A stretch of DNA of 64,000 nucleotides from a virus (lineage: Duplodnaviria; Heunggongvirae; Uroviricota; Caudoviricetes): IMG/VR virus record IMGVR_UViG_3300027673_000001, positions 18,759 through 82,758 of that record. One strand, 5' to 3'. Positions within the stretch are counted from its first letter, which is position 1. Each line of letters begins with the position of its first letter. A program made the position numbers and the translations under genes. Below are positions 3,085 to 61,103 of the stretch, piece after piece. The notes below the pieces were generated by a model. It saw only the letters and a list, made by a program, of their open reading frames with translations, searched no databases and was not told the DNA's origin.

Positions 3085-4136
3085 AGGCTAATATTCACGG
3101 CTTCGACGTAGAGTTGTTTCATGTACTTTGCCAACTCTGTCCTATCAACATCTACTTGTGACGACTCAATGTAGTGTTGAAGTATTGATTGGGTATCTTC
3201 AATATCAAGGCTTTCGTCCATCTCATCGGATGTCATTTCAGAGACTGACTCCATGACTTTAATGTCATGCGCTCCACAATTGTAAAGCCTATCCATGAAG
3301 TTGTCAAAGGCATAGTAGTCATTCTTCTTTTGAACCACTACCTTAACAAACTTTTCCGAGAAGAGGGAGACGTCAATCCCTCTGTAGTCTGTGTTGGTGT
3401 CATCATAGACGATGCGCTCAAACATTGTGTAGGGGTTTTCGATGAATGTTAGTTCCCGGGTCGACGTTTCGAAGATATGAAATCCCCTAGGGTCTCCGCT
3501 ATCCATGTGAGTAAGCTCATAAGGATTACCCAGATAGTTAATCCTACCCCGGCTAGACCTATGATGATAATGCCCACTAAAAACCATATCGAATCTAGAA
3601 AAGAGATTAGCCTCGAAACCATCGTGTGACTCCATGCCCCTATACATTGAAAACCCAGATATCTCAAGGTGCCCACACAATAGGTCAGCTCTTGAGTTCT
3701 CCAACATAGACATACTCTCATGGTAGTTGTCGGCACATACCCAAGGCAACATCAGGAACTTCGTTCCGTCTACGAGTGTTATGTCCGTTGGCTTGCTTAT
3801 AGGGATGATGTTATCGTAATCCTGCAGGAGAAGTTCTGGAGAGTTGATGCTTAGGCTGTTCCTGAGCGCTATGTCATGATTGCCTACAAGCATATGAATT
3901 CTCACGCCTGCTTCCTTTGCTGCATCAAAGAAGTATTCCTTGCAACGTTTCAGGGAATAGTAGTCAATGTACTTCCTACGGTCAAAGCAGTCACCAAGGT
4001 GTAGGACTTCTGTGATGCCTTCTTCCTTTAGTCTAGGGAAGAATACGTTCCTGTAGAACTTCTCAAAGAAGTCATGAAAGATTACTCTACCTTCTCGGCA
4101 CCCAAAGTGAGTATCTGTTACAAAAGCTATTTTCAT
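3081..4136 (-). CDS. gp47: recombination endonuclease nuclease subunit (SbcD/Mre11-like)
   Basis: Metallophosphoesterase motifs DTHFG, GDCFD, GNHD, GHYH; ATGA overlap with gp46. Confidence 0.96.
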   Translation of the reverse strand: MKIAFVTDTHFGCREGRVIFHDFFEKFYRNVFFPRLKEEGITEVLHLGDCFDRRKYIDYYSLKRCKEYFFDAAKEAGVRIHMLVGNHDIALRNSLSINSPELLLQDYDNIIPISKPTDITLVDGTKFLMLPWVCADNYHESMSMLENSRADLLCGHLEISGFSMYRGMESHDGFEANLFSRFDMVFSGHYHHRSSRGRINYLGNPYELTHMDSGDPRGFHIFETSTRELTFIENPYTMFERIVYDDTNTDYRGIDVSLFSEKFVKVVVQKKNDYYAFDNFMDRLYNCGAHDIKVMESVSEMTSDEMDESLDIEDTQSILQHYIESSQVDVDRTELAKYMKQLYVEAVNISL

Positions 4137-4672
4137 ATTGTGTTGTTATCTTCTTCACCAAGGAACTCGTCAAGAGGAGACTTCACATTCTTCTTGGGCT
4201 TCTTGGCGATACTCTTCTCATAAGCCTCGAAGTCAAAGGAGCTGTTTGACTGGATGAAACTAACAAAGTTCTGGGACATTTCATTGTCATCAAACTCCTG
4301 AAGTTCGAAAGCCTCAAAGGGCATCTCCATAACCAGCTTGTGTTTGATGTAGCTCTGCTTCTTTTCCCTTGCTATACGTCTTATGAAGGCATAGTAACAA
4401 ATCTGCGTGAAGTAGGCAAATGCGTTTGAGGATTTAGAGGAGTCAAAGTTCGTGAGATACTGAAGACAGTTTTCAATGCCGTCGGACACCATCTCTTCTC
4501 GGTATGAGTAGTTGTAGAAGTTGGGCTTTGAAGCAAACCTGTTGGCTATGTCATAGATGCATACACCGATGTACTCAGGGACTCTTTCCTCTGGATTATC
4601 TTTGAGTCTGAGTTTGTACTCCTCAAGGGCCTTTACAAACTCAGCGTTGTTCACATAATGGTTTTTTGACAT
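4133..4672 (-). CDS. gp55: late-transcription sigma factor
   Basis: HYVNNAEF, YSYREEMVSDGIENC and AFAYFTQICYYAFIRRI are characteristic gp55 segments. Confidence 0.95.
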   Translation of the reverse strand: MSKNHYVNNAEFVKALEEYKLRLKDNPEERVPEYIGVCIYDIANRFASKPNFYNYSYREEMVSDGIENCLQYLTNFDSSKSSNAFAYFTQICYYAFIRRIAREKKQSYIKHKLVMEMPFEAFELQEFDDNEMSQNFVSFIQSNSSFDFEAYEKSIAKKPKKNVKSPLDEFLGEEDNNTI

Positions 4673-4697: not shown

Positions 4698-4725
4698 ATT
4701 ATAACACCATAGGACGTTGTGTCAA
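4698..4725 (-). promoter_or_regulatory. sigma70-type promoter for gp55-47-46 (TTGACA-16-TATAAT, extended -10)
   Basis: Both hexamers are perfect consensus; SD AGGAG precedes ATG 4672. Confidence 0.8.
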
Positions 4726-4733
4726 TGTTTGCT

Positions 4734-4805
4734 TCTTGAATTTGACAGAACGCTTGACATGTCATAAACTAACCGTGTACTGGATGATAATCAACAGGGA
4801 TTATA
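4734..4805 (+). repeat. conserved intergenic element, copy 1 (contains TTGACA-17-TAAACT at 4742-4770)
   Basis: 64/72 identical (7 mismatches, 1 gap) to 58981-59051 by hand alignment. Confidence 0.9.
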
Positions 4806-6297
4806 TCTTATAGTGCTTTATAGAGAACTCTAGTTGCTCTTCCCTGTATTGCTCTAAGCGAGCCTTCATGTGGTTAAGACTAAAGTTACCCTTTGAGTTC
4901 GTAGACAAGTCATCGGCTATATCGAAGAGACGACACATCTCTTTCCCGTCCTTGAGTCTTAAGCCCCTACCTATGGATTGTAGGTTCCTGATTTTGCTCT
5001 TTCCGGGACTAGCAAATATGATGTTTTCTATGCTTGGTATGTTCACACCCGTGGATAATGTCTTGAAGCTAGCCACAACAATGGCGTCATTGTGAGTATT
5101 CAATACTTGCCTTATGCGTTCTCGTTCGTCTACAGAAACTTCGCCCGAGATGTAGAACAAAGGTCTGTCCTCTCCACATACTTCCCTTATCAACTTATGT
5201 AGTGGCTTGCCGTGCTTCTCCACAAACTCAAATAGCACTAGGGTGTTTCCCTTGCAAGCCTTTGCTAGTTTTGCGGTGAAGGCAAGCCTTCTTTTGTGGC
5301 CTATGATGAAGTCCAACTCTTGCCTGTACTCTACTTTCTTGACTAGCTTACGCTCTTCAATTGGGTATTCGAGAACCAGAGTTGTGATTTTGAGGTTCGT
5401 AACCTGACCCCTATCCATCAGTTCCCGTGTTGTAGTGACTACATGGACGGGTCCAAAGCTTCCTTCTAGGGTTAGCTTTGACACCTTTGCGTCTTGAAGT
5501 GTTCCTGTAGTGCCTAATCTGTATTTTGCCCTACGGAGTTTTGTTGCTATTTCCAGAATAGACTTTGAGGCAAACAAGTGAGCTTCGTCTCCGATGTAGA
5601 CATCCCATGCGTCAAGAAGTTTTGACTTGGCGTCTTTCTTTGTGATGGAGTGGATGCTTTGCCATGTAGTAATCAGAACTGGGAGGTCGAATGACTTTTC
5701 CTGCCCACCATAGAGTTTGTGGACGTGTTCGTTGACATCCCATTCGTCTTCCGAAGAATAGTCGTCAAAGTCACTGAACATCTGCTCAACAAGGCTTGTT
5801 GTTGGTACCATAAGAATGATTCTTCTATTGTACCTTAGATGCCAACGGACATAACAATAGATGATGGCAGACTTACCACTGGATGTGGGTGATAGTAGCA
5901 GACCACCGTTATGGTTTATGGCGTGACGTATGGCTTCGACCTGATAGTCACGTAGAGCAATTTTTCTGCCGCCAGTGTGGAGGTTTAGACTATCAACAAA
6001 CTTTTGGACTTCTTCGGTTGTTAGATTGTCTCTTTCGTCAAACGTCTTATCTATGACTGGGTATTCGTTCTTATCTGCGAATAGTCTCACATAGTCAGCC
6101 AAACCTACCGGCAGAGTCTTGCGTCGTATGTCATACATCCTTGCTTTGCCGTCCCAGATTTTGTTCTTGAAGGCTGGCATGAATCTGGCACCAGGGACAT
6201 CAAACGTAAAGAACTCATTCAGTTCCTGTTCGATACCATAGTCGTCAGATGAGACAAATAGCGTCGCTTCGTCTCTTTTCTCGATTGTGATAGTCAT
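4801..6297 (-). CDS. uvsW: UvsW SF2 DNA/RNA helicase
   Basis: SPTSSGKS Walker A, DEAH, TGT motif III, QSIGRGLR motif VI; next to uvsY. Confidence 0.95.
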   Translation of the reverse strand: MTITIEKRDEATLFVSSDDYGIEQELNEFFTFDVPGARFMPAFKNKIWDGKARMYDIRRKTLPVGLADYVRLFADKNEYPVIDKTFDERDNLTTEEVQKFVDSLNLHTGGRKIALRDYQVEAIRHAINHNGGLLLSPTSSGKSAIIYCYVRWHLRYNRRIILMVPTTSLVEQMFSDFDDYSSEDEWDVNEHVHKLYGGQEKSFDLPVLITTWQSIHSITKKDAKSKLLDAWDVYIGDEAHLFASKSILEIATKLRRAKYRLGTTGTLQDAKVSKLTLEGSFGPVHVVTTTRELMDRGQVTNLKITTLVLEYPIEERKLVKKVEYRQELDFIIGHKRRLAFTAKLAKACKGNTLVLFEFVEKHGKPLHKLIREVCGEDRPLFYISGEVSVDERERIRQVLNTHNDAIVVASFKTLSTGVNIPSIENIIFASPGKSKIRNLQSIGRGLRLKDGKEMCRLFDIADDLSTNSKGNFSLNHMKARLEQYREEQLEFSIKHYKI

Positions 6298-6773: not shown

Positions 6774-6797
6774 AGACGTATGTTACACTGAAACCTA

Positions 6798-7328
6798 TCA
6801 GTTGTCAACAAAGAAGTATGAATAGTGAAGTGTGATGCTTGACTTGGCGTATAGAACGTCCTGGGCTTGTGTAGAGAATCTTATCCCACCAAGAGATGAA
6901 GGAAAACAATCAACAAACTTGAACTTCTTTATGACCTCATTGTTCTTTCCTAGTAGGAACAATGTGGCGTCGGAATAGTTCCTTGGGAGGTCAGCAGAGT
7001 CCTTGAACCCCCTGCTTTGGTTCTCTCTAGTGTATTGTTCATAAGTCTCGGGAAACCCCAGGCCCTGCATCCATTTAAAACACTCCATCCAGTTTTCCAG
7101 CTTGGCGTCAACAGCAAACTCAACTGTTAAGGGCGAGAAGATGATTTTGTCTGTAGGTACTTGGACGTTAACCAAAGGGGTTGGTTGTTCTGTAGGAGGC
7201 AGAGAAATGTCTGGGAGAGTGACTTCCTGCGTAAAGAAGCTCACTAGGGGCATACGTTCTATCTGCAGAACAAAGCCGTTGGGGTTTAGGAAGTTTATAT
7301 CTACGCTTGGGCAGGTTAGGTTGCTCAT
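6798..7328 (-). CDS. gp3: tail tube terminator / sheath stabiliser
   Basis: NFLNPNGF...FFTQEVTLP...FSPLTVEFAVDAKLENW; follows gp23 as in T4-like cyanophages. Confidence 0.88.
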   Translation of the reverse strand: MSNLTCPSVDINFLNPNGFVLQIERMPLVSFFTQEVTLPDISLPPTEQPTPLVNVQVPTDKIIFSPLTVEFAVDAKLENWMECFKWMQGLGFPETYEQYTRENQSRGFKDSADLPRNYSDATLFLLGKNNEVIKKFKFVDCFPSSLGGIRFSTQAQDVLYAKSSITLHYSYFFVDN

Positions 7329-16672: not shown

Positions 16673-17728
16673 TCAGAAGTAAGTATAGGATGTTCTGTCA
16701 TCCCAGGTTTTATTAAAATCGGCAGAACCTTCTGCCCATACGATATTTATGTCGGAAGTAACCTGCTCAACTCTCTTTATCCTCCAAACAGGCGCAGAAG
16801 GCAAGGAACCAGGTACTGCTTCACCTATGTATGTGAAAGAACCGTCAGTGTCTATGAGTTTGTTGTACTGCACTTCTATTCCTGTCTGAATGCCTTGGAT
16901 AAACTCCAGAAGGTCTCTTACTACAAATTTCTTCTTGGAAGAGTCGAATATGAGAATTGCGTTTTCGCTTACTTCCGAAAGTCTCTTGAATTCAACATCA
17001 TCATTATCAAGTATCTTAGCAGAGCCACCTCCCGAAGAACCACCACCAGGGGCTAGGTTCATTAACGTAAGGTTAACCTTTGCTACAAACGCAGAGTGTA
17101 GTTTGGTGTATTGGTCTGTTATCTTATCTATGAATGGCGTTATGTCCGGTGTTACGCCATCAACACCATCGCGCCCATCTTTACCATCACGACCGTCCTT
17201 GCCATCAACTCCGTCGCGTCCATCTTTCCCGTCTTTGCCCGGAGGACCAATAGTACCATCACGTCCGTCTTTACCATCGATGCCGTCGCGACCATCTTTC
17301 CCTGGTGCCCCGTCTTTACCGTCGATTCCATCCTTACCGTCGCGACCGTCCTTACCTGGCGGACCTTCAGGTCCTATAGGGCCTGCTTCGCCATCTTTGC
17401 CAGGGGCTCCGTCGATTCCATCACGACCATCTTTACCGTCAATTCCGTCGCGACCGTCCTTACCTGGCGGACCTTCGGCTCCATCCTTCCCGTCTATTCC
17501 GTCGCGCCCATCTTTACCGTCTTTGCCAGGGGCTCCGTCGATTCCATTTCGACCGTCCTTACCTGGCGGACCTTCGTCGCCCTTTGGTCCTTGAATTCCC
17601 ATGAGTCCTTCGGCTCCATCCTTACCATCACGTCCATCTTTGGGCATGATAGTAGAAACATAGTCAAAGACTTCCTTCTTGAGTTTTTCAAAGAAGGTAA
17701 TGATTATTCCATAATCTAGTGGACTCAT
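16673..17728 (-). CDS. collagen-like fibre protein with C-terminal beta domain
   Basis: 54 uninterrupted G-X-Y triplets (17150-17635); C-terminal YIGEAVPGS...WRIKRV domain; starts 1 nt after the portal stop. Confidence 0.88.
   Translation of the reverse strand: MSPLDYGIIITFFEKLKKEVFDYVSTIMPKDGRDGKDGAEGLMGIQGPKGDEGPPGKDGRNGIDGAPGKDGKDGRDGIDGKDGAEGPPGKDGRDGIDGKDGRDGIDGAPGKDGEAGPIGPEGPPGKDGRDGKDGIDGKDGAPGKDGRDGIDGKDGRDGTIGPPGKDGKDGRDGVDGKDGRDGKDGRDGVDGVTPDITPFIDKITDQYTKLHSAFVAKVNLTLMNLAPGGGSSGGGSAKILDNDDVEFKRLSEVSENAILIFDSSKKKFVVRDLLEFIQGIQTGIEVQYNKLIDTDGSFTYIGEAVPGSLPSAPVWRIKRVEQVTSDINIVWAEGSADFNKTWDDRTSYTYF
17150..17635 (-). repeat. collagen-coding region with internal direct DNA repeats
   Basis: gtccttacctggcggaccttc occurs 3 times and ccaggggctccgtcgattcca twice. 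Confidence 0.85.
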
Positions 17729-41178: not shown

Positions 41179-42252
41179 TTAGGAAGCTACGATGTTGATC
41201 GCTGCGCCGAGTTGGTTAGTTGTTCTGTAAACCCTATAGTCTGTTGTTTGTCCAAATGCATTGGTAACAGAAACGGTGTATGGAGCCTCAAAAGGAACGT
41301 CCAAGTTTGTTGACTGATCCTTGAATGTTGTCAGCAGAGGGAAAGACAGAGGGGCGGCAATGTATTTGAATGTGCCGGAAGCCGCAGGGAAGGTATATGT
41401 AGCAGAAGCAGAGGTCGCTAGTGTTGAAGTAGCTAGAGCTTCAATTTGAGCTTCTGTCAATGGACCGGCAATGGCACTGTTACCGTTATACCTTCTCCAT
41501 CTCCATTCAACTGTAAGGTCTCTCTGGAATGCGTTTGTTTGGGTGTTGGTTGCTCTGATTCTCCAAACTCTAGTTCCTGGACCGTCTGCAGCGTTTCTTG
41601 TCTGTGCGAGAAGTGTACCAGCAAATGAGCCCGTATTTGCTAGCCCAGTATGAACAGCAGTGCCTACAGGGAACTGAATTTCAATGCTGTTTGGTTGTAT
41701 GTTGGAGGCGTTTGTTGTACTCCAAGTGTAGTTGGGGTTTGCTGGGGTGGTTTGACCTATTTCAAGTGTAGCTGTATAGCCCGTAAAGGAGAAAGCACTA
41801 AAGGAGGGAGCCTGATATGGGTACAATAGATCCGTGAACATTTGCTGCCATGTTCTGTCTAGGAATGTCGTACCTGCGGCTATGCCACCAAGTGTTGTAG
41901 GAACGGGTGTTGCATTAGTGTAAACACCCGCCGCACCAGCAGACAATGTGTCAATAGCGGATTTGAGCTCGTTGATTGCAGCAACGAGGTTAGTTTTAGT
42001 GGAAGTATCTAGATCTTCGAGCTCCCCAATTTCGCCTTCGAGCTCGTTGATTGCAGCAACTAGGCTTGTTTGTGAATCCGTGTTAAGAAGAGCCAGACTA
42101 CCCTGGTTACCAAGAACTTCGTTGATTGCAGCAACTAGGTTCGTCTTTGTGGTTGTGTTGAGTGAAGGAAGATTACCTATGGCTATTGTTAGGTTCTTAA
42201 TGTCCTCACCGATGGCTGTAGCAAGAGCTACTAACCTAAGTTCAAGTGTCAT
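41179..42252 (-). CDS. fibre protein with LVAAINE repeats and Ig-like C-terminus
   Basis: Three LVAAINE repeats at exact 75-bp spacing (41971, 42046, 42121). Confidence 0.75.
   Translation of the reverse strand: MTLELRLVALATAIGEDIKNLTIAIGNLPSLNTTTKTNLVAAINEVLGNQGSLALLNTDSQTSLVAAINELEGEIGELEDLDTSTKTNLVAAINELKSAIDTLSAGAAGVYTNATPVPTTLGGIAAGTTFLDRTWQQMFTDLLYPYQAPSFSAFSFTGYTATLEIGQTTPANPNYTWSTTNASNIQPNSIEIQFPVGTAVHTGLANTGSFAGTLLAQTRNAADGPGTRVWRIRATNTQTNAFQRDLTVEWRWRRYNGNSAIAGPLTEAQIEALATSTLATSASATYTFPAASGTFKYIAAPLSFPLLTTFKDQSTNLDVPFEAPYTVSVTNAFGQTTDYRVYRTTNQLGAAINIVAS
41967..42140 (-). repeat. three 75-bp-period coding repeats (core gttgattgcagcaac)
   Basis: Read directly from the sequence. Confidence 0.85.
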
Positions 42253-56554: not shown

Positions 56555-58981
56555 TTACGCTAATCTTGAAATCGTGAATACGTCCTTGCTAATTCTTCTA
56601 TGGTTGTTCATTGTGAAGTTTTGCCTTCTATTGTTCCCTCCGGAGAAGCTGACGTGTATCCAACCGTTACCACCGGGAGTCAAGTATTCGAGAATCAACT
56701 GGTCATATGGAACCAGCTTTTGTACTTGGAGAATCACATCATAGAGTTCTGCTCTAGAAACTCCAACGAAGGAAAGGTCAACTGCCTGTCCTCTCTCGTG
56801 CTGGCTTCTACCTGTGCCATACCTAAAGCAGGAGTTAATCTTGACGTTGGGGAAATTATCCCTGATTGGGTCAATGACGTTCTCTGCAAGGGACTTAAGG
56901 TTACAGAAAATCTGTGCCTCTGTTAGGCCTCCCTGTGCCTTGAGAGGACGACTACCATTGGATGTTAGGTCAGCAAGGTTGTAGTACTTACCCATCCTCT
57001 CACGTCCCGTGAATGTATTCTGGGATGCAGGGATACCACACTCATTGATTTGCTCTTCAACTTGGTTTGGTTCGGGTTTCACTTCTTCTACTACCTCTGG
57101 CTTGGTTTCCAACTGCTCCTTAGTTAGAGCTCCTTGTCTGATCATCTCTTCCTCAAACTCCTCAACAGCAGAGGGGTCATCCTCCGTCACTTCATAATCT
57201 ATTGCCGTCTCTTCCTTCCTAGTTAGAACGTTCAGGGGAGCAGCGGATGACACAGAGGCACCTATGGCACCGATGGTTTGCAGACCAGCCGCAAATCCTG
57301 AGTTCATGTGTATCAAGGGAGCATCCATGGCTATTGTCCCGCCTGCTTTCACGTAGAAGTTACCACCAACAGTCATATCCATATTACCAGCTACATTTAG
57401 GTTTGCGCTGTCATGGATATTAACTGTGGTCTTTCCGTTTATCTGTACATCACAAGTACCGTCAACTCTAAGAGTGTGGGCTCCTTCTACTCTAACATCA
57501 AGAGACCCGATGACATGGACATAACCATTGCGTTCGATGATTGTGTATCCGTCGCCTACAATGAAGTTGACTTGAGTTCCGTTGTGGTCTATCTCAGTGA
57601 ACGTCCCCTTGGTGTGATACATATGGACCCTTTCGCGCCCCTTTGTATCGTCAAACTCCATCAGATGCCCACTCTCACTCTGATAGACGTTGTTGAAAGG
57701 ATACTGGGCATTGTAGGGAGTCTTGGCTTGGTCCCAGGAGCCCTTACCGTTGGCTTTTTCTACACCCACGTGTCTGTTTTGTTCCTTGAGGAAAACTACT
57801 GTCTCGCCTATCTTTTCGTGCCTTGCCAAACGGTTTGTGTCTGGTTCGTTCAAGTGCGAAGCCAGGGGATATTTTCCGTTAGGGTCCTTGAAACCTACGT
57901 TTGGGCTGGAAAACGCTACTTCTGATTCCTCAAAGGAGACCAGATTCCCTTCTCTGATATCTCTGTCAACCTCTGCTGGGTTTGCGTCTCTAATTGCCTG
58001 GGTGTTTTGCAGGGAAACATCCTCGGGGCGGGGAGTGTCTGCTCTGGTGATTTTTGTAGTGAGGGGGTCAGAACCAGCAACCGACCTAAAACCTTCCTTG
58101 TAGTATCTTTCTGTAGTGGTTCCATTGGCGTCTGCTTTGACAACGCCATTATAGAATTGCTTTGCACCACCAGCACCATACAGGTGGGCAGAGGCTATGA
58201 GCCCTGCTTTCTCTGCATCCGACATTGTACCTATAGGTACCCCTATCCTTGTCAGGATTCTGAAGTTGGCGTCTATGTTCTCGGACATAACCAACTCCTG
58301 TATTTCGGGGTTATTCAGGAAGTCTTCTTTGCTTCTTATGCCATTCTTTCCTGTCCAGTTGCTTGCCTCATCGAGACCCCTATTGGAAGTACCCGCCTTG
58401 ACGTAGCCCCTATCCTGTAGCGCCGCAGCGCCGAACTGATACTTTCCCAGATAGTTCAGCTGGTTTACTGCAAGGTAGTTGTTTGAGGATTCGAGCTCAC
58501 CCAATCTAATGGTGACCTTTTTCTTCCAATCCGGGTCAACCAAAGGAGCGGGCGTTTCTGTTGTTACGGGCTCGCCTGTGCCGCTGGTTACAGGTACTCC
58601 AGCACCAGAGATGACCTGGTTAGGTACAGGAACAACGTTATCTCTTTCGAGAATGGAAAACTTCTCAAGGGGAGGGTTAACGCTCTGGGGTATACCTCCA
58701 AGAGACCCTATGATAAAGGGCATCTGTTTTTCTGGGTCCATGAACTGAACAGCTACCCATGTGCCTTCTACCAACCCAACAGGAGCATTACCTATTCCGT
58801 TCATAGCGCCAGATACAGAGGGTTGAATTTTTGCTGCCCAAGGTAGATCTTCTGTAGGTAGTTGAGATTTATCCCAAGTGTGTAGTCCTAGTATTCTAAC
58901 ACGACACCTACCATTTTTCAATGGGTCAAGGCGGGATTCAACAACCCCTAAGTAGAAATCTGGTGAATTAAAATTGTTCAT
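56555..58981 (-). CDS. gp5: baseplate hub spike: OB-fold, lysozyme-like domain, beta-helix, C-terminal M15 Zn-peptidase
   Basis: GVVESRLDPLKNGRCRVRILG...LPWA; ESSNNY...YLGKYQFG; YPFNNVYQSESGHLMEFDDT; SQHERGQAVD...WIHVS. Confidence 0.9.
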   Translation of the reverse strand: MNNFNSPDFYLGVVESRLDPLKNGRCRVRILGLHTWDKSQLPTEDLPWAAKIQPSVSGAMNGIGNAPVGLVEGTWVAVQFMDPEKQMPFIIGSLGGIPQSVNPPLEKFSILERDNVVPVPNQVISGAGVPVTSGTGEPVTTETPAPLVDPDWKKKVTIRLGELESSNNYLAVNQLNYLGKYQFGAAALQDRGYVKAGTSNRGLDEASNWTGKNGIRSKEDFLNNPEIQELVMSENIDANFRILTRIGVPIGTMSDAEKAGLIASAHLYGAGGAKQFYNGVVKADANGTTTERYYKEGFRSVAGSDPLTTKITRADTPRPEDVSLQNTQAIRDANPAEVDRDIREGNLVSFEESEVAFSSPNVGFKDPNGKYPLASHLNEPDTNRLARHEKIGETVVFLKEQNRHVGVEKANGKGSWDQAKTPYNAQYPFNNVYQSESGHLMEFDDTKGRERVHMYHTKGTFTEIDHNGTQVNFIVGDGYTIIERNGYVHVIGSLDVRVEGAHTLRVDGTCDVQINGKTTVNIHDSANLNVAGNMDMTVGGNFYVKAGGTIAMDAPLIHMNSGFAAGLQTIGAIGASVSSAAPLNVLTRKEETAIDYEVTEDDPSAVEEFEEEMIRQGALTKEQLETKPEVVEEVKPEPNQVEEQINECGIPASQNTFTGRERMGKYYNLADLTSNGSRPLKAQGGLTEAQIFCNLKSLAENVIDPIRDNFPNVKINSCFRYGTGRSQHERGQAVDLSFVGVSRAELYDVILQVQKLVPYDQLILEYLTPGGNGWIHVSFSGGNNRRQNFTMNNHRRISKDVFTISRLA

Positions 58982-59051
58982 CTTGAATTGACAAAGTGCT
59001 TGACACGTCGTAAACTAACCGTGTACTGAATGATAATCAACAGGAATTATA
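58981..59051 (+). repeat. conserved intergenic element, copy 2 (contains TTGACA-17-TAAACT at 58988-59016)
   Basis: 64/72 identical to 4734-4805; fills the whole gap between the hub stop and the gp5 start. Confidence 0.9.
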
Positions 59052-60321
59052 AAGACCTAATGATGCTGTCCTTACTAATCTCCATGTTGCAAAGATGGCT
59101 TTCTCTGGTTATGGTATGAGTAAGAGCCGTGATAAGGTACTTACCTGTTAGCATCTGATCAATAATCTCTTCTGAAGAGTCTGTTTCGTTAGTCTTTGAA
59201 TTCTTGTAGGCTGTCATTTCTATAGGTCTTCCTACACTATAGTCCATTCTGCCAAATACTTGAATGTTAGTTGTGAACGCAGAAAGTTGCTTCAACAAGG
59301 CAGTTCTTTCCAGGAAGTGCGTTACTGAAAGTTGGGGGCTGTTCTGGTAGATGTTTCTGTGTATCACAGACATATGAAGGTTTGCCTCAGGTCTGAACTG
59401 AAGTCTCTCGGAATCAAAGCCCTTGTTGGGGTTCAGAGTCGGAGCCCTAGCTAAGTCCTTTGATGCTATGAGGTTCTGGTAGTCCAGTCTTTTTGTTTCT
59501 ATGTCATAACGATATGCCGTACCGCCATAGAAACCAGATTCTACCCTATCAAAGTAGTCATAGAATACAGGCGTTGACATATCAAGAACTGTGCCCCAGT
59601 CCTCTTCTATGTTCTTGCTTTCTCCGGGTCTCCTAGTCTTGGGGTGCCTAAAGAACTTTGCCATTGTGGGGAGTTTGTATAGGCTCTGCAGACTTGCGAA
59701 AACAAATCCTTCGTTGTTTTCGAAGAATGTGTAGGAGGGGTAACCCTCAGTTGATATCGCATCACCGACTAGGTGATATATGTTTTGCGTGGGAGTCCAG
59801 AAATTGCTAGTGTGTATGTTGTTGTTGGCTGTCTCTTCTATGACGGCATTCTTGCTGGTATTAAGTCCAGGATCTGTCCTTAGGAGTGTCCTAACAGTAT
59901 CAGAGATTCGTCCCCTGAATGTTTGGCTTATCCTGGAGTTTACATCCGTGAAAGCTTCAATTGAAACAAAGCAAAGAGATATGACGTTATTCTTGGCTGT
60001 GATAGCTTCGTTGCCTTCCATCTTGTATATGTGGAAGACTTGGTTGCGTTTCTTGTTCCAAACAGCTGAACCATCAGGATGGGGAGTTTCCAAGTCAAGT
60101 ATCAGTAGCTCTTCACCCATGAAAGGCAAGGATTCTGCCAGGGAGTTGGCATCGCTTATGGTGAGTCTACCTGTGATGAAAGGGGACATGATGTCCTCAA
60201 AGATCTCCAGGGACACCATGATGTTCTTAAGGTTTATGCCCTTACCACGAGAATTGATAACCGTTACGCCATCTACTTTTATGGCGCCGGCTTCTATTCT
60301 GTTGTTTGCATCATCTATCAC
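59047..60321 (-). CDS. baseplate hub protein (gp27-like)
   Basis: LEIFEDIMSPFITGRLTISD, YTFFENNEGFVFASL, GKYLITALTHTI; between gp53 and gp5. Confidence 0.72.
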   Translation of the reverse strand: MIDDANNRIEAGAIKVDGVTVINSRGKGINLKNIMVSLEIFEDIMSPFITGRLTISDANSLAESLPFMGEELLILDLETPHPDGSAVWNKKRNQVFHIYKMEGNEAITAKNNVISLCFVSIEAFTDVNSRISQTFRGRISDTVRTLLRTDPGLNTSKNAVIEETANNNIHTSNFWTPTQNIYHLVGDAISTEGYPSYTFFENNEGFVFASLQSLYKLPTMAKFFRHPKTRRPGESKNIEEDWGTVLDMSTPVFYDYFDRVESGFYGGTAYRYDIETKRLDYQNLIASKDLARAPTLNPNKGFDSERLQFRPEANLHMSVIHRNIYQNSPQLSVTHFLERTALLKQLSAFTTNIQVFGRMDYSVGRPIEMTAYKNSKTNETDSSEEIIDQMLTGKYLITALTHTITRESHLCNMEISKDSIIRSL

Positions 60322-61103
60322 AGAAGATCCCTAAAGTTGTTTAGGACAGTGGAGAGTAGGTTCTCATCTATGACCCTGATTGTTCTCTTGAGGTCGTTTT
60401 GTTCTTGCTCTCTGTTGTATATACTTATGGCTCTGAGATTTGGTATGGCGCCCATGTCTATTCTATGGGTCTTTGTGTCCAGTCTCTGGTTTGTGTCCTT
60501 GTAGAAGTACCTCTTGATTTGAATTCCTAGAACATCGTCATAGAAGTTCACGGACATCACAGGTCTGATCTCTACCGTATTGTTGGACCTATTGATGACC
60601 CTAACATCCTGGTTGATATCCACCGAAAGACCGTTGTCTTGCTTGAATTCAACAATGAGAGTTCTTGGAGTAAGACCATAGAACACTTCAAGATATGTGA
60701 TCTCACTATCTACGCTATCGCCTGTGAGCTCACCAATGGATATGTCGGCAAGTATCGAGCTGGAGGAAGCCAGGGATACTAGAGTTGGGTTGTACCTTCT
60801 CTCTACGTAAGTCTCAAACTCAGCTGAACCTAGTGGTAGGTCCTTGGCATAGTCGAACCTATCGTTTAGGAGCATCAGGACCCAATAGTAATCCGGAGAC
60901 CCGTATAGTCTTTCGGACAAGTTTTCGATTGTATCATTCTCTGGTATGTTGATGACATCATACAGAGAGATGTTGTCAAGAACTTCTTTCTTGAACCTAA
61001 CGTTCCTGGTTATATCTACAAGGGAGACAAACTCCGGCTTCTTCCTATAGGAAGGCGGAGATATTTGAAACAGCGTGCTTGGAAAGTTCTGGAAGTATTT
61101 CAT
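60318..61103 (-). CDS. gp53: baseplate wedge subunit with an insertion
   Basis: MKYFQNFP, IENLSERLYGSPDYYWVLMLLN, NDLKRTIRVI. Confidence 0.88.
   Translation of the reverse strand: MKYFQNFPSTLFQISPPSYRKKPEFVSLVDITRNVRFKKEVLDNISLYDVINIPENDTIENLSERLYGSPDYYWVLMLLNDRFDYAKDLPLGSAEFETYVERRYNPTLVSLASSSSILADISIGELTGDSVDSEITYLEVFYGLTPRTLIVEFKQDNGLSVDINQDVRVINRSNNTVEIRPVMSVNFYDDVLGIQIKRYFYKDTNQRLDTKTHRIDMGAIPNLRAISIYNREQEQNDLKRTIRVIDENLLSTVLNNFRDLL

What the first reader, a model, noticed from the sequence alone, without database searches (positions are those of the whole stretch)
4734..4805. Twin 72-bp intergenic element 54 kb apart, each an antisense-firing promoter beside uvsW/uvsY and gene 5: candidate R-loop origins or conserved sRNA
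Seen: 4734-4805 and 58981-59051 align at 64/72 nt. Both keep two TTGACA hexamers 12 bp apart, a GAC-N2-GTC dyad (perfect TGACATGTCA in copy 1), TTGACA-17-TAAACT on the + strand, and a near-identical 35-nt downstream segment (AACCGTGTACTGRATGATAATCAACAGGRATTATA). Both end exactly on the TAA of a convergent - strand gene. Conservation extends well past the predicted +1, which a plain promoter does not need. Established: T4 origins such as ori(uvsY) are promoter-driven R-loops that UvsW dissolves, and oriE maps to the gene 5 region with transcripts opposite to the late genes. Inference: these are paired replication origins, or a duplicated antisense/small RNA or protein-binding site.
Basis: partly seen in the sequence, partly recalled or inferred. 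Interest (0 to 1): 0.8.

Follow-up and report, generated by a model that had tools for sequence, protein, structure and literature searches.

The report
Conserved backward-firing promoter cassette, three copies
An uncultured T4-like phage and its relatives keep the same ~60-base promoter cassette at three fixed gene junctions, always pointing against the genes and driving no protein, which makes it a good candidate for a start signal of DNA replication or for an early antisense RNA.

Summary
The repeat is real. It has three copies in the complete 162,860-bp genome, not two; the third lies outside the window, upstream of primase gp61. All three lie on the + strand between genes on the - strand: uvsW|gp55, tail gene|gp5 and a terminator|gp61.

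Relatives whose neighbouring proteins are only 41-73% identical carry a homologous cassette at the same three junctions. One 122-kb contig has all three.

The conserved parts, read against the genes, are:
- TTGACA-N5/6-TTGACA;
- a -10 hexamer 16-17 nt from the first TTGACA, whose sequence varies but stays TAnnnT or TGn-AAnAAT;
- a start-site box, CCGTGTACYGG;
- a -10-like GA(G/T)AAT at about +8 to +15;
- about 25 AT-rich bases.

This is the signature of a selected host sigma70 promoter that fires antisense. It drives no conserved ORF and has no RNA fold. It is neither a generic early promoter nor a PeSL.

Its function is inferred. The three sites lie within about 2 kb of the orthologues of the genes that carry T4 oriF, oriE and oriA, and oriE also uses an early promoter antisense to gene 5. 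I put a primer or R-loop origin role at about 0.35-0.4, and early antisense silencing at about 0.25-0.3.

The parts
4742..4805 (+). Cassette copy 1 (core 64 bp; similarity to copy 2 extends back to 4734). It lies between the uvsW stop and the gp55 promoter.
   Evidence: Homologues sit at the same junction in L086, L087, L088, L016, L049 and L005.
4742..4747 (+). -35 hexamer TTGACA of copy 1.
   Evidence: It is TTGACA in 14 of 15 family members; the only variant is TTGACT in this genome's own third copy.
4754..4759 (+). Second TTGACA, 12 nt after the first and 5 nt before the -10. Its role is unknown.
   Evidence: It is kept in 14 of 15 members, at a start-to-start distance of 11-12 nt.
4765..4770 (+). 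-10 hexamer TAAACT, 17 nt after the first TTGACA.
   Evidence: Relatives have TAAAAT, TATCAT, TACAAT, TATACT or TGn-AAGAAT/AATAAT at the same place.
4773..4783 (+). Start-site box CCGTGTACTGG. The predicted +1 is G at 4777.
   Evidence: CCGTGTAC is kept in 11 of 15 members (CCCTGTAC and CCGTGTAA in two; the most distant pair has GTATGTCC). The +1 is inferred from the usual 7-nt distance to the -10 and has not been measured.
4786..4791 (+). -10-like hexamer GATAAT at about +10 to +15; an overlapping GATGAT begins at +7.
   Evidence: GA(G/T)AAT is present in 13 of 15 members, 2-4 nt (5 in this phage and in L120) after CCGTGTAC.
4698..4725 (-). Ordinary gene-strand early promoter for gp55, TTGACA-16-TGnTATAAT (12 of 12), back to back with copy 1.
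4801..6297 (-). uvsW helicase gene. Its stop codon lies inside the cassette, and the predicted transcript runs antisense into it.
4133..4672 (-). gp55 late sigma factor gene, downstream of copy 1 on the gene strand.
58988..59051 (+). Cassette copy 2 (core 64 bp; similarity extends back to 58981). It fills the 65-nt gap between the tail/baseplate gene and gp5. -35 is at 58988-58993, the second TTGACA at 59000-59005, -10 at 59011-59016, the box at 59019-59029, and the predicted +1 at 59023.
   Evidence: Homologues sit at the same junction in L107, L108, L109/L110/L125 and L121/L122/L130/L131.
59047..60321 (-). Tail/baseplate protein gene (PHROG 350). Its stop codon lies inside copy 2.
56555..58981 (-). 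gp5 baseplate hub/lysozyme gene. Its ATG is 6 nt from the cassette's -35 hexamer. It has no Shine-Dalgarno sequence and no promoter of its own.
   Evidence: The same abutment is seen in L107, L108 and L130.

Best explanation
Shown, about 0.85-0.9. Each copy is a self-contained cassette of about 60 bp built around a near-consensus host sigma70 promoter that points against the flanking genes. Read in the promoter's direction it consists of:
- a -35 TTGACA;
- a second TTGACA inside the 16-17-nt spacer;
- a -10 TAnnnT;
- a GC-rich start-site box, CCGTGTACYGG;
- a -10-like GA(G/T)AAT at about +8 to +15;
- about 25 AT-rich bases.

It drives no conserved ORF. It has been kept at three fixed junctions (uvsW|gp55, tail gene|gp5, terminator|gp61) throughout a clade of uncultured T4-like phages.

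Inferred, about 0.35-0.4. Host RNA polymerase fires from the three cassettes immediately after infection. The short untranslated transcripts stay hybridised in the AT-rich stretch behind the GC-rich start box. They then prime leading-strand synthesis, as at the early-promoter-dependent T4 origin oriE. On this reading the three cassettes are the phage's origins. The box shared by all copies would be the part read by a common trans-acting step, such as primer formation or processing, or an origin-binding protein.
For: 1. There are exactly three copies in the complete genome, all on the + strand in regions where genes are on the - strand.

2. Homologous cassettes sit at the same three junctions in relatives whose neighbouring proteins are 41-73% identical. 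One 122-kb contig carries all three (L086, L107, L113). Further lineages carry one or two sites.

3. All 15 unique members score 9-11 of 12 as sigma70 promoters in the antisense direction. The -10 sequence varies but remains a legal -10. The gene strand scores only 6.5-9, at inconsistent positions.

4. They are the only strong intergenic + strand promoters in minus-gene regions. Copy 2 is the only intergenic sigma70-type promoter in the late structural region between about 26 and 87 kb.

5. There is no conserved ORF downstream, no RNA structure and no conserved terminator.

6. An AT-rich stretch (77% against a 59% background) lies at +15 to +40, after a GC-rich start box.

7. [quoted passage not shown] All three cassettes therefore lie within about 2 kb of orthologues of T4 origin-bearing genes.

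8. No MotA or AsiA was detected. An early-mode promoter would therefore be the only T4-type option for an origin promoter.
Against: - There are no transcription, R-loop or replication data of any kind.
- T4 origins share no sequence motif (PMC3016281), so a shared origin cassette has no precedent.
- In T4, the oriA and oriF primers are the ordinary sense mRNAs of genes 56 and uvsY. Here all three transcripts would be antisense to the neighbouring genes, which are early-type at two of the three sites (uvsW, fed from a sigma70-like promoter before uvsY; the gp5 site lies among late genes).
- The AT-rich stretch is only about 25-30 bp. T4's minimal oriF and oriG origins (promoter plus AT-rich unwinding element) are about 100 bp.
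- GC skew shows no inflection at the sites.
- The match with T4 origin neighbourhoods could reflect shared module boundaries rather than shared function.
- The MotA/AsiA searches had no positive control.
- The conserved box and the second TTGACA would fit a regulator binding site on an antisense-RNA promoter equally well.
Confidence: 0.38

Rival explanations
1. Early antisense or 'anti-late' RNA promoters. The same host-RNAP promoters fire early. Their transcripts, or the head-on polymerase traffic, keep the upstream genes silent until sigma70 transcription is shut off. Those genes are uvsY-uvsW, the baseplate operon and a spanin-like gene. The shared start-site box would be the operator of a common regulator that times the shut-off.
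For: - The promoter evidence is the same as for the main reading.
- Each cassette abuts the 3' end of an upstream gene, and the stop codon lies inside it at two of the three sites.
- The upstream genes have late-type functions in T4; UvsW is made from a late promoter (PMC3016281).
- uvsY-uvsW here has a sigma70-like promoter upstream, so an early brake would have something to act on.
Against: - Cis-antisense pairing needs no conserved sequence, so the box shared by three unrelated targets is left unexplained unless a regulator is added.
- At the gp61 site an intrinsic terminator already separates the genes.
- In the late region around copy 2, the crude scan found no gene-strand sigma70-like site in an intergenic gap (only weaker ones inside coding sequence) whose read-through would need silencing.
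- The three targets have nothing functional in common.
Confidence: 0.27
2. A DNA-level protein platform. The twin TTGACA repeats, one helical turn apart, together with the box bind a phage or host protein, or hold a sigma-dependent paused RNA polymerase. This would mark three fixed points on the genome, for example as regulators of the neighbouring promoters or as loading sites. The RNA itself would be unimportant.
For: - The second TTGACA cannot act as a -35 for any -10, yet it is kept in 14 of 15 members.
- A -10-like hexamer with A2 and T6 sits at about +8 to +15 in 13 of 15 members. From my own knowledge, this resembles the sigma70-dependent pause elements of lambdoid PR' promoters.
- The downstream part is uniform within a genome and differs between genomes, as expected if it co-evolves with a trans-acting factor.
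- The gp55 and gp61 sites are back to back with ordinary promoters in several lineages.
Against: - No candidate binding protein was identified.
- The gp5 site has no divergent partner promoter in any lineage, so coupling to a neighbouring promoter cannot be the common role.
- The box is not a dyad.
- The within-genome uniformity is equally well explained by gene conversion between the copies.
Confidence: 0.17
3. Three paralogous genes for a trans-acting small RNA. The conserved 5' end (GUGUACYGG...GAKAAU) would be a seed that pairs with a host or phage target.
For: - Conservation runs past the predicted +1.
- In this phage the first ~29 transcribed nucleotides are 91-100% identical among the copies.
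Against: - There is no Rfam family.
- Fold z-scores lie between -0.1 and +1.2, and RNAalifold predicts no pairs.
- There is no conserved terminator or defined 3' end.
- Only about 15-17 transcribed nucleotides are kept across the clade.
- No partial copy or complementary site stands out elsewhere in the genome.
Confidence: 0.08
4. A recombination or 'mobile regulatory' cassette of the PeSL kind, or a neutral recent duplication of a promoter.
For: - It is a repeated intergenic sigma70 promoter in a T4-like phage.
- The copies within this phage have been made uniform.
- In L086 an extra gene sits next to the cassette.
- A Logan assembly breaks inside the repeat.
Against: - Four features separate it from a PeSL: it has no stem-loop, it points against the genes, it has no SD or start codon after it, and it has three copies at core-gene junctions rather than about 50 in hyperplastic regions (PMC2839356).
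- The three sites are syntenic in relatives whose neighbouring proteins are down to 41% identical. This rules out a recent neutral duplication.
Confidence: 0.05

Closest known systems
Phage T4 replication origin oriE (early-promoter-dependent origin in gene 5)
   Same: - It relies on an early-mode, host sigma70 promoter, not a MotA promoter (PMC3016281).
- Its primer RNA is complementary to the late gene 5 transcript (T4 GenBank note).
- It lies in the baseplate gene cluster, as copy 2 does.
- Short direct repeats with a 12-nt period are associated with it.
   Different: - T4 oriE lies inside the 3' part of gene 5. Copy 2 lies just upstream of gene 5 and fires into the preceding gene.
- T4 has a cluster of 12-nt iterons and the small repEA and repEB ORFs on the antisense transcript. 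Here there are only two TTGACA repeats, plus a TTGAA half-site, and no conserved ORF.
- T4 has no twin TTGAC motif anywhere in its genome.
- Origin activity has not been tested here.
Phage T4 oriF (uvsY) and oriG (34): promoter plus downstream unwinding element, R-loop origins
   Same: - The logic is the same: a promoter followed by an AT-rich stretch.
- The transcript is not needed as a message at the origin.
- Copy 1 lies beside uvsY-uvsW, and UvsW is the helicase that removes such R-loops (PMC3016281).
   Different: - oriF and oriG use MotA-dependent middle promoters. Here the promoter has a true -35, the GCTTGAC motif is only 5-6 nt from the -10 rather than 11-13 nt, and no MotA or AsiA was found.
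- The AT-rich stretch is about 25-30 bp. T4's minimal oriF and oriG origins (promoter plus unwinding element) are about 100 bp.
- oriF's primer is the sense uvsY mRNA. Here the transcript is antisense.
- T4 origins share no sequence with each other, whereas these three copies are paralogous.
PeSL cassettes (promoter-early stem-loop) of T4-type phages (Arbiol et al. 2010, PMC2839356; Comeau et al. 2014, PMC4122927)
   Same: Both are repeated, conserved intergenic cassettes built around a strong sigma70-like early promoter in T4-like genomes, often starting at the stop codon of the upstream gene.
   Different: - There is no stem-loop.
- The cassette is oriented against the genes.
- No SD or start codon follows the promoter.
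- There are three copies at conserved core-gene junctions, not about 50 in hyperplastic regions in front of ORFans.
- Synteny is conserved, rather than showing cassette shuffling.
Lambdoid late promoters PR' (sigma70-dependent promoter-proximal pause)
   Same: From my own knowledge, these have a strong sigma70 promoter, a factor-binding element between -35 and -10, and a -10-like hexamer in the initially transcribed region. The cassette shows all three at the sequence level.
   Different: No Q-type antiterminator or any other partner was identified. The pause is only predicted from sequence. This is a resemblance recalled from memory, not a tested membership.

Membership tests
Host sigma70 (early-mode) promoter | -35 TTGACA and -10 TAnnnT separated by 16-18 bp | tested here: met
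   The hexamers match 9-11 of 12 positions in all 15 unique members, with spacers of 16-17 nt, on the strand opposite to the genes.
Host sigma70 (early-mode) promoter | Selection acts on the hexamers rather than on the surrounding sequence | tested here: met
   The -35 hexamer is TTGACA in 14 of 15 members (TTGACT in this genome's third copy). The -10 varies (TAAACT, TAAAAT, TATCAT, TACAAT, TATACT, TGn-AAGAAT, TGn-AATAAT) but is always functional in form. The spacers differ freely.
Host sigma70 (early-mode) promoter | A mapped transcription start | not testable with these tools
   No RNA data are available. The +1 positions at 4777 and 59023 are inferred from the spacing.
T4 oriF/oriG-type R-loop origin | MotA-dependent middle promoter (MotA box 11-13 bp upstream of the -10) | tested here: not met
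   GCTTGAC lies only 5-6 nt from the -10. No MotA_activ or AsiA Pfam hit was found in the complete genome, although those searches had no positive control.
T4 oriF/oriG-type R-loop origin | [quoted passage not shown] | tested here: inconclusive
   AT content is 77% at +15 to +40 against a 59% background in 14 members. The stretch is only about 25-30 bp, and intergenic DNA is AT-rich anyway.
T4 oriF/oriG-type R-loop origin | A persistent R-loop, or autonomous replication of a plasmid carrying the element | not testable with these tools
   This needs an experiment.
T4 oriE-type origin | Early-mode promoter whose transcript is antisense to late baseplate genes | tested here: met
   This holds for copy 2 and its orthologues. 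The sigma70 promoter is antisense in the gp53 - tail gene - gp5 cluster, and it is the only intergenic sigma70-type promoter between 26 and 87 kb.
T4 oriE-type origin | A cluster of evenly spaced 12-nt iterons, and the repEA/repEB ORFs | tested here: not met
   There are only two TTGACA repeats 11-12 nt apart, plus a TTGAA half-site. There is no conserved ORF on the antisense strand.
PeSL (promoter-early stem-loop) | A stable stem-loop (terminator) within or next to the promoter | tested here: not met
   MFE z-scores lie between -0.1 and +1.2 on both strands, and there are no consensus pairs. Only the gp61 site has a separate terminator nearby.
PeSL (promoter-early stem-loop) | Promoter directed at a downstream gene, with an SD and a start codon | tested here: not met
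   The promoter points away from gp55, gp5 and gp61, into the 3' end of the upstream gene.
PeSL (promoter-early stem-loop) | Tens of copies, concentrated in hyperplastic regions | tested here: not met
   There are exactly three copies, all at core-gene junctions that are syntenic in relatives.
Structured non-coding RNA (any Rfam family) | A match to a covariance model, or a conserved secondary structure | tested here: not met
   No Rfam hit reached a gathering score in the window or in L002. RNAalifold on 13 members predicts no pairs.

The most novel reading that the evidence does not exclude
The cassette is a sequence-defined replicator shared by a whole clade of T4-like phages. On this reading there are three paralogous origins, each driven by an early promoter, and they sit at positions that correspond to T4 oriA, oriE and oriF. 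If so, origin positions have been conserved across the T4 superfamily even though origin sequences have not. The CCGTGTACYGG/GAKAAT box would then be the first recognisable origin motif, marking where a primer forms or an initiator binds, in this group.
Probability: 0.33. Interest if true: 0.8.

Novelty: new variant of a known kind. Interest (0 to 1): 0.62.

Why it matters
T4 is the textbook case of R-loop-primed replication. Even so, its origins share no motif, and the early-promoter-dependent origin oriE is still poorly understood (PMC3016281).

This cassette is short and has clearly separable parts. It recurs at three syntenic sites in many uncultured T4-like phages and drives no gene. That makes the question directly testable with cloned 60-bp fragments: does it fire, does it pause, does it form an R-loop, and does it support replication?

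If it is not an origin, it is still a conserved three-site system of early antisense transcription in phages whose genes almost all lie on one strand. That would be a new regulatory layer for this group.

The motif also gives a practical signature (TTGACA-N5/6-TTGACA ... CCGTGTAC) for recognising the clade in metagenomes.

Tried and rejected
**RNA readings**
- Structured RNA: no Rfam hit, single-sequence folds no better than shuffles and no RNAalifold pairs. Rejected.
- Discrete small RNA with a terminator: only chance-level terminator-like sites 500-740 nt downstream, and nothing beyond codon-level conservation in the uvsW 3' end. Rejected.
- Small peptide: the ATG after the box gives 9-, 29- and 43-codon frames in the three copies and is absent from several relatives. 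Rejected.
- The 184-aa antisense ORF at 59780-60334 is not kept in relatives. Rejected.

**Gene-strand readings**
- Gene-strand promoter: the TATAAT at the far end has no -35, and the best gene-strand scores are inconsistent. The gp5 ATG lies 6-25 nt from the cassette, which leaves no room for a promoter. Rejected.
- Gene-strand mini-terminator (CCG/CGG stem plus U run): a 3-bp stem is too weak. Rejected.
- GAC-N2-GTC dyad: not conserved. Rejected.

**Known promoter classes and binding sites**
- Generic early promoter: rejected, because there are exactly three copies.
- MotA-type middle promoter: wrong spacing, and no MotA or AsiA hit.
- T4 late promoter: (C/T)ATAAATA marks late genes in this genome but is absent from the cassette.
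- By-eye comparison with Fur, Pho, DnaA and IHF boxes gave only partial matches. These consensus sequences were recalled from memory, so this was not a test. Dropped.

**Searches that found nothing useful**
- GC skew: no signal at the sites.
- Exact-pattern scans of IMG/VR with phage-specific patterns: 0 hits.
- JGI metagenome contigs: 0 hits, then 15 hits that are all GC-rich chance matches.
- GTDB genomes: 0 hits.
- BLAST against 50,697 cultured-phage records: chance level only.
- T4 has no twin TTGAC motif.
- The more distant T4-like contigs G004-G007 lack the motif.
- G001 has only the gp55 copy and none at the primase gene.
- Records behind L086 and L087 are not held for whole-record search.
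Full report
**1. Where the window lies**

The window is bases 18759-82758 of a complete 162,860-bp IMG/VR virus record with terminal repeats and 46% G+C. It is a T4-like phage. UvsW, UvsY, gp55, gp47, gp46, gp5, gp53 and gp61 are all recognisable. The closest cultured relatives, cyanophages and pelagiphage HTVC008M, reach only about 44% identity in UvsW. Nearly all genes are on the - strand.

**2.

- Window 4742-4805 and 58988-59051 are 57/64 identical without gaps. With 8 more upstream bases and one 1-nt gap the match is about 65/72.
- A 28-nt piece of the core occurs only at these two sites in the window and in none of 100 shuffles.
- The whole genome has a third copy at 149509-149572 (L002:1501-1564), 92% identical.
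- Profile searches find exactly three copies and nothing weaker.
- Of the 9 variable positions among the three copies, 7 fall in the first 23 nt (the -35 and the spacer). Only 2 fall in the last 41 nt.

**3. Context of the three copies**

All three are on the + strand, between two genes on the - strand.

| Copy | Upstream gene (- strand) | Downstream gene (- strand) | Notes |
|---|---|---|---|
| 1 | uvsW; stop at 4801-4803, inside the element | gp55, late sigma factor, 4133-4672 | A perfect gene-strand promoter, TTGACA-16-TGnTATAAT (4725 to 4698), lies back to back with the element |
| 2 | PHROG-350 tail/baseplate gene; stop at 59047-59049 | gp5; ATG ends at 58981, 6 nt from the element | Fills the 65-nt gap. 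gp5 has no promoter and no SD of its own |
| 3 | 191-aa signal-peptide/spanin-like gene followed by a 13-bp-stem terminator | primase gp61 | Followed by a gene-strand TTGACA-16-TAGACT promoter for gp61 |

**4. Which strand does it work on?**

I scanned the whole genome for sigma70-type promoters.
- About 25 sites of the form TTGACA-17-TA(c/t)AAT lie on the gene strand. These are the ordinary early promoters.
- The three cassettes are the only strong intergenic promoters on the + strand in minus-gene regions.
- Copy 2 is the only intergenic sigma70-type promoter in the late structural region between about 26 and 87 kb, where genes carry (C/T)ATAAATA late promoters.

**5. Comparative evidence decides the strand**

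IMG/VR holds only distant gp55 relatives (50-60% identity), and none matched the first profile. The large protein collection gave closer ones. Their contigs show a homologous cassette at each of the three junctions.

| Junction | Loci carrying the cassette |
|---|---|
| After uvsW / before gp55 | L086, L087, L088; L016, L049 and L005 more distantly |
| Tail gene / gp5 | L107, L108, L109/L110 (=L125), L121/L122/L130/L131 |
| Before gp61 | L113, L114, L115, L120/L126/L129 |

- L086, L107 and L113 are parts of one 122-kb contig, so a second phage has all three sites.
- L087 and L115 come from one sample.
- The neighbouring proteins are 41-73% identical to ours.
- Inserted genes separate the cassette from gp55 in L086 and from uvsW in L016. 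It therefore behaves as an independent module.

**6. Anatomy of the family**

These features come from 15 unique members, read against the genes:
- often a CTTGAA half-site;
- TTGACA in 14 of 15 members (TTGACT in this genome's third copy);
- 5-6 nt, then a second TTGACA in 14 of 15;
- 4-5 nt, then a -10 hexamer 16-17 nt from the first TTGACA. It is TAAACT, TAAAAT, TATCAT, TACAAT or TATACT, or an extended TGn-AAGAAT or TGn-AATAAT;
- 1-2 nt, then CCGTGTAC(Y)GG. The most distant pair has GTATGTCC;
- 2-4 nt after CCGTGTAC in most members (5 nt in this phage and in L120), then GA(G/T)AAT in 13 of 15;
- an AT-rich run, 77% AT at +15 to +40 against a 59% background.

Every member scores 9-11 of 12 as a sigma70 promoter in this direction. 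The gene strand gives 6.5-9, at inconsistent positions. A -10 that changes sequence yet always stays a legal -10, next to freely varying spacers, is what selection on a working promoter looks like. I take the antisense promoter as established at the level sequence analysis allows, about 0.85-0.9. The +1 (G at 4777 and 59023) is inferred from spacing.

**7. What it is not**

- **Structured RNA.** There is no Rfam hit. Folds are no better than shuffles on either strand. RNAalifold predicts no pairs.
- **Discrete small RNA.** There is no conserved terminator. The uvsW 3' end shows nothing beyond codon-level conservation.
- **Coding sequence.** The short frames after the box differ between copies and are missing in relatives. 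The 184-aa antisense ORF is not conserved.
- **PeSL.** PeSLs are defined by a strong early promoter plus a stem-loop, followed by the SD and start codon of the downstream gene, in about 50 copies mostly in hyperplastic regions (PMC2839356). Here only the promoter criterion is met.
- **MotA-type middle promoter.** The GCTTGAC motif lies 5-6 nt from the -10, not 11-13. No MotA or AsiA was detected, although those searches had no positive control.

**8. Evolution of the copies**

- In the promoter part (-35 to +4), copies are 72-95% identical whatever the genome or the site. Our gp5 copy is closest to the other phage's gp61 copy. There is no orthology signal, only pull towards one consensus.
- In the +5 to +27 part, our three copies are 91-100% identical, the 122-kb phage's are 52-65%, and between the two phages identity is 30-48%.
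- The repeat is long enough to break a Logan assembly exactly inside it (L085).

**9. Function (inference)**

An orphan host-RNAP promoter that makes an untranslated antisense transcript has a direct precedent in T4.
- It also states that oriF and oriG consist of a promoter plus an A+T-rich unwinding element in which the transcript forms a persistent R-loop, that UvsW removes such R-loops late in infection, and that T4 origins share no motif.
- The T4 GenBank record places oriF at the 5' end of uvsY. It places oriE inside gene 5, with a 'primer RNA complement of gene 5 transcript'. It places oriA in gene 56, two genes downstream of gene 61.

The three cassettes lie beside uvsY-uvsW, at gene 5 and at gene 61. 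Each is within about 2 kb of the orthologue of a T4 origin-bearing gene. A rough estimate of my own puts the chance of three random junctions doing so at a few percent. Module boundaries could still be a common cause.

Put together, the evidence for an origin is the spacing of three copies round the genome, the absence of any gene to drive, the GC-rich start box followed by an AT-rich stretch, and a box shared by all copies. I therefore rank a primer or R-loop origin role first, at about 0.35-0.4.

Against it:
- there are no functional data;
- the AT stretch is short;
- the transcripts are antisense to the neighbouring genes (early-type at the uvsW site), unlike the sense primers of T4 oriA and oriF;
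- GC skew shows no signal;
- a shared origin motif has no precedent.

**10. Rival readings**

- **Early antisense or 'anti-late' silencing of the upstream genes, about 0.27.** It fits the abutment on gene 3' ends and the late-type functions upstream. It does not explain the shared box without adding a regulator. It is redundant at the gp61 site, where a terminator already exists. It has nothing to silence around copy 2.
- **A DNA-level platform for a protein or a paused polymerase, about 0.17.** It would explain the second TTGACA and the GAKAAT hexamer, which by sequence resembles a sigma70-dependent pause element. That comparison comes from my own knowledge and was not tested.
- **A trans-acting small RNA, about 0.08.**
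- **A PeSL-like or neutral repeat, about 0.05.**

T4 oriE transcripts are also early antisense RNAs.

**11. Distribution and novelty**

- The family was found only in uncultured T4-like phages from JGI, Logan and IMG/VR assemblies.
- The motif is absent from 185,579 GTDB genomes, from T4 and from 50,697 cultured-phage records at BLAST sensitivity.
- More distant T4-like contigs lack the motif.
- A half-complete, more distant relative has only the gp55 copy.
- Earlier notes of this scan describe few-copy conserved cassettes at fixed junctions in other T4-like groups, including orphan promoters upstream of gene 55. Those notes are leads only, not evidence. They suggest the phenomenon may be general.

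I class the finding as a new variant of a known kind: an orphan early promoter of the T4 oriE type, here as a conserved three-site paralogous cassette with extra conserved boxes.

Noticed in passing
L086:2130-2858 (- strand of the locus) and L086:3604-4290: In the 122-kb relative, a 242-aa ORF with weak zinc-ribbon/zf-BED hits lies on the opposite strand, between the cassette and gp55. A SegE-like GIY-YIG gene follows gp55. This looks like mobile-gene insertion right next to the cassette.
   Followed up: partly
window 58975-58990; L107:4820-4840; L108:4815-4836; L130:1310-1335: gp5 has no Shine-Dalgarno sequence in any lineage. Its start codon sits 6-25 nt from the cassette's -35 hexamer, so the gp5 translation start region overlaps the upstream edge of the antisense promoter.
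   Followed up: partly
L120:1245-1285: The gene-strand promoter for primase in this relative (TTGACT-17-TACAAT) ends only 6 nt before the ATG. This suggests a leaderless gp61 mRNA. In our genome, the -10 of the uvsY promoter likewise ends about 6 nt before the called start (window about 6780-6808).
   Followed up: no
L085:1-61 (Logan contig SRR5459766_3350): A 13-kb assembly of the same phage ends exactly inside the cassette. This is a typical assembler break at a repeat.
   Followed up: yes
L127:2650-2720, L128:7365-7434, L132:4049-4120: Three IMG/VR contigs carry TTGACA-N5-TTGACA followed by CCGTGTAACCGGGTGAACCGTGTG. They have no recognisable -10 and no flanking genes shared with this phage. 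This may be a distant or degenerate relative of the cassette, or chance.
   Followed up: partly
window 17148-17642: A long run of 9-nt-period repeats on the - strand, of the collagen-like Gly-X-Y type, lies inside a structural-region gene.
   Followed up: no
window 41969-42177: Three tandem 75-nt repeats (63-73% identical) lie inside a coding region of the tail/baseplate block.
   Followed up: no
whole genome (G000): No Pfam AsiA or MotA_activ hit was found. The phage probably lacks the T4 middle-mode switch, but the search had no positive control.
   Followed up: partly
window 62273 onward (genome 81031-86081): A block of + strand genes starts about 3.2 kb to the right of copy 2. By synteny with relatives these are gp4-like, gp2-like and tail genes, as in the T4 4 | 53 divergence. 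Transcripts from copy 2 would become sense RNA there if they ran that far.
   Followed up: no
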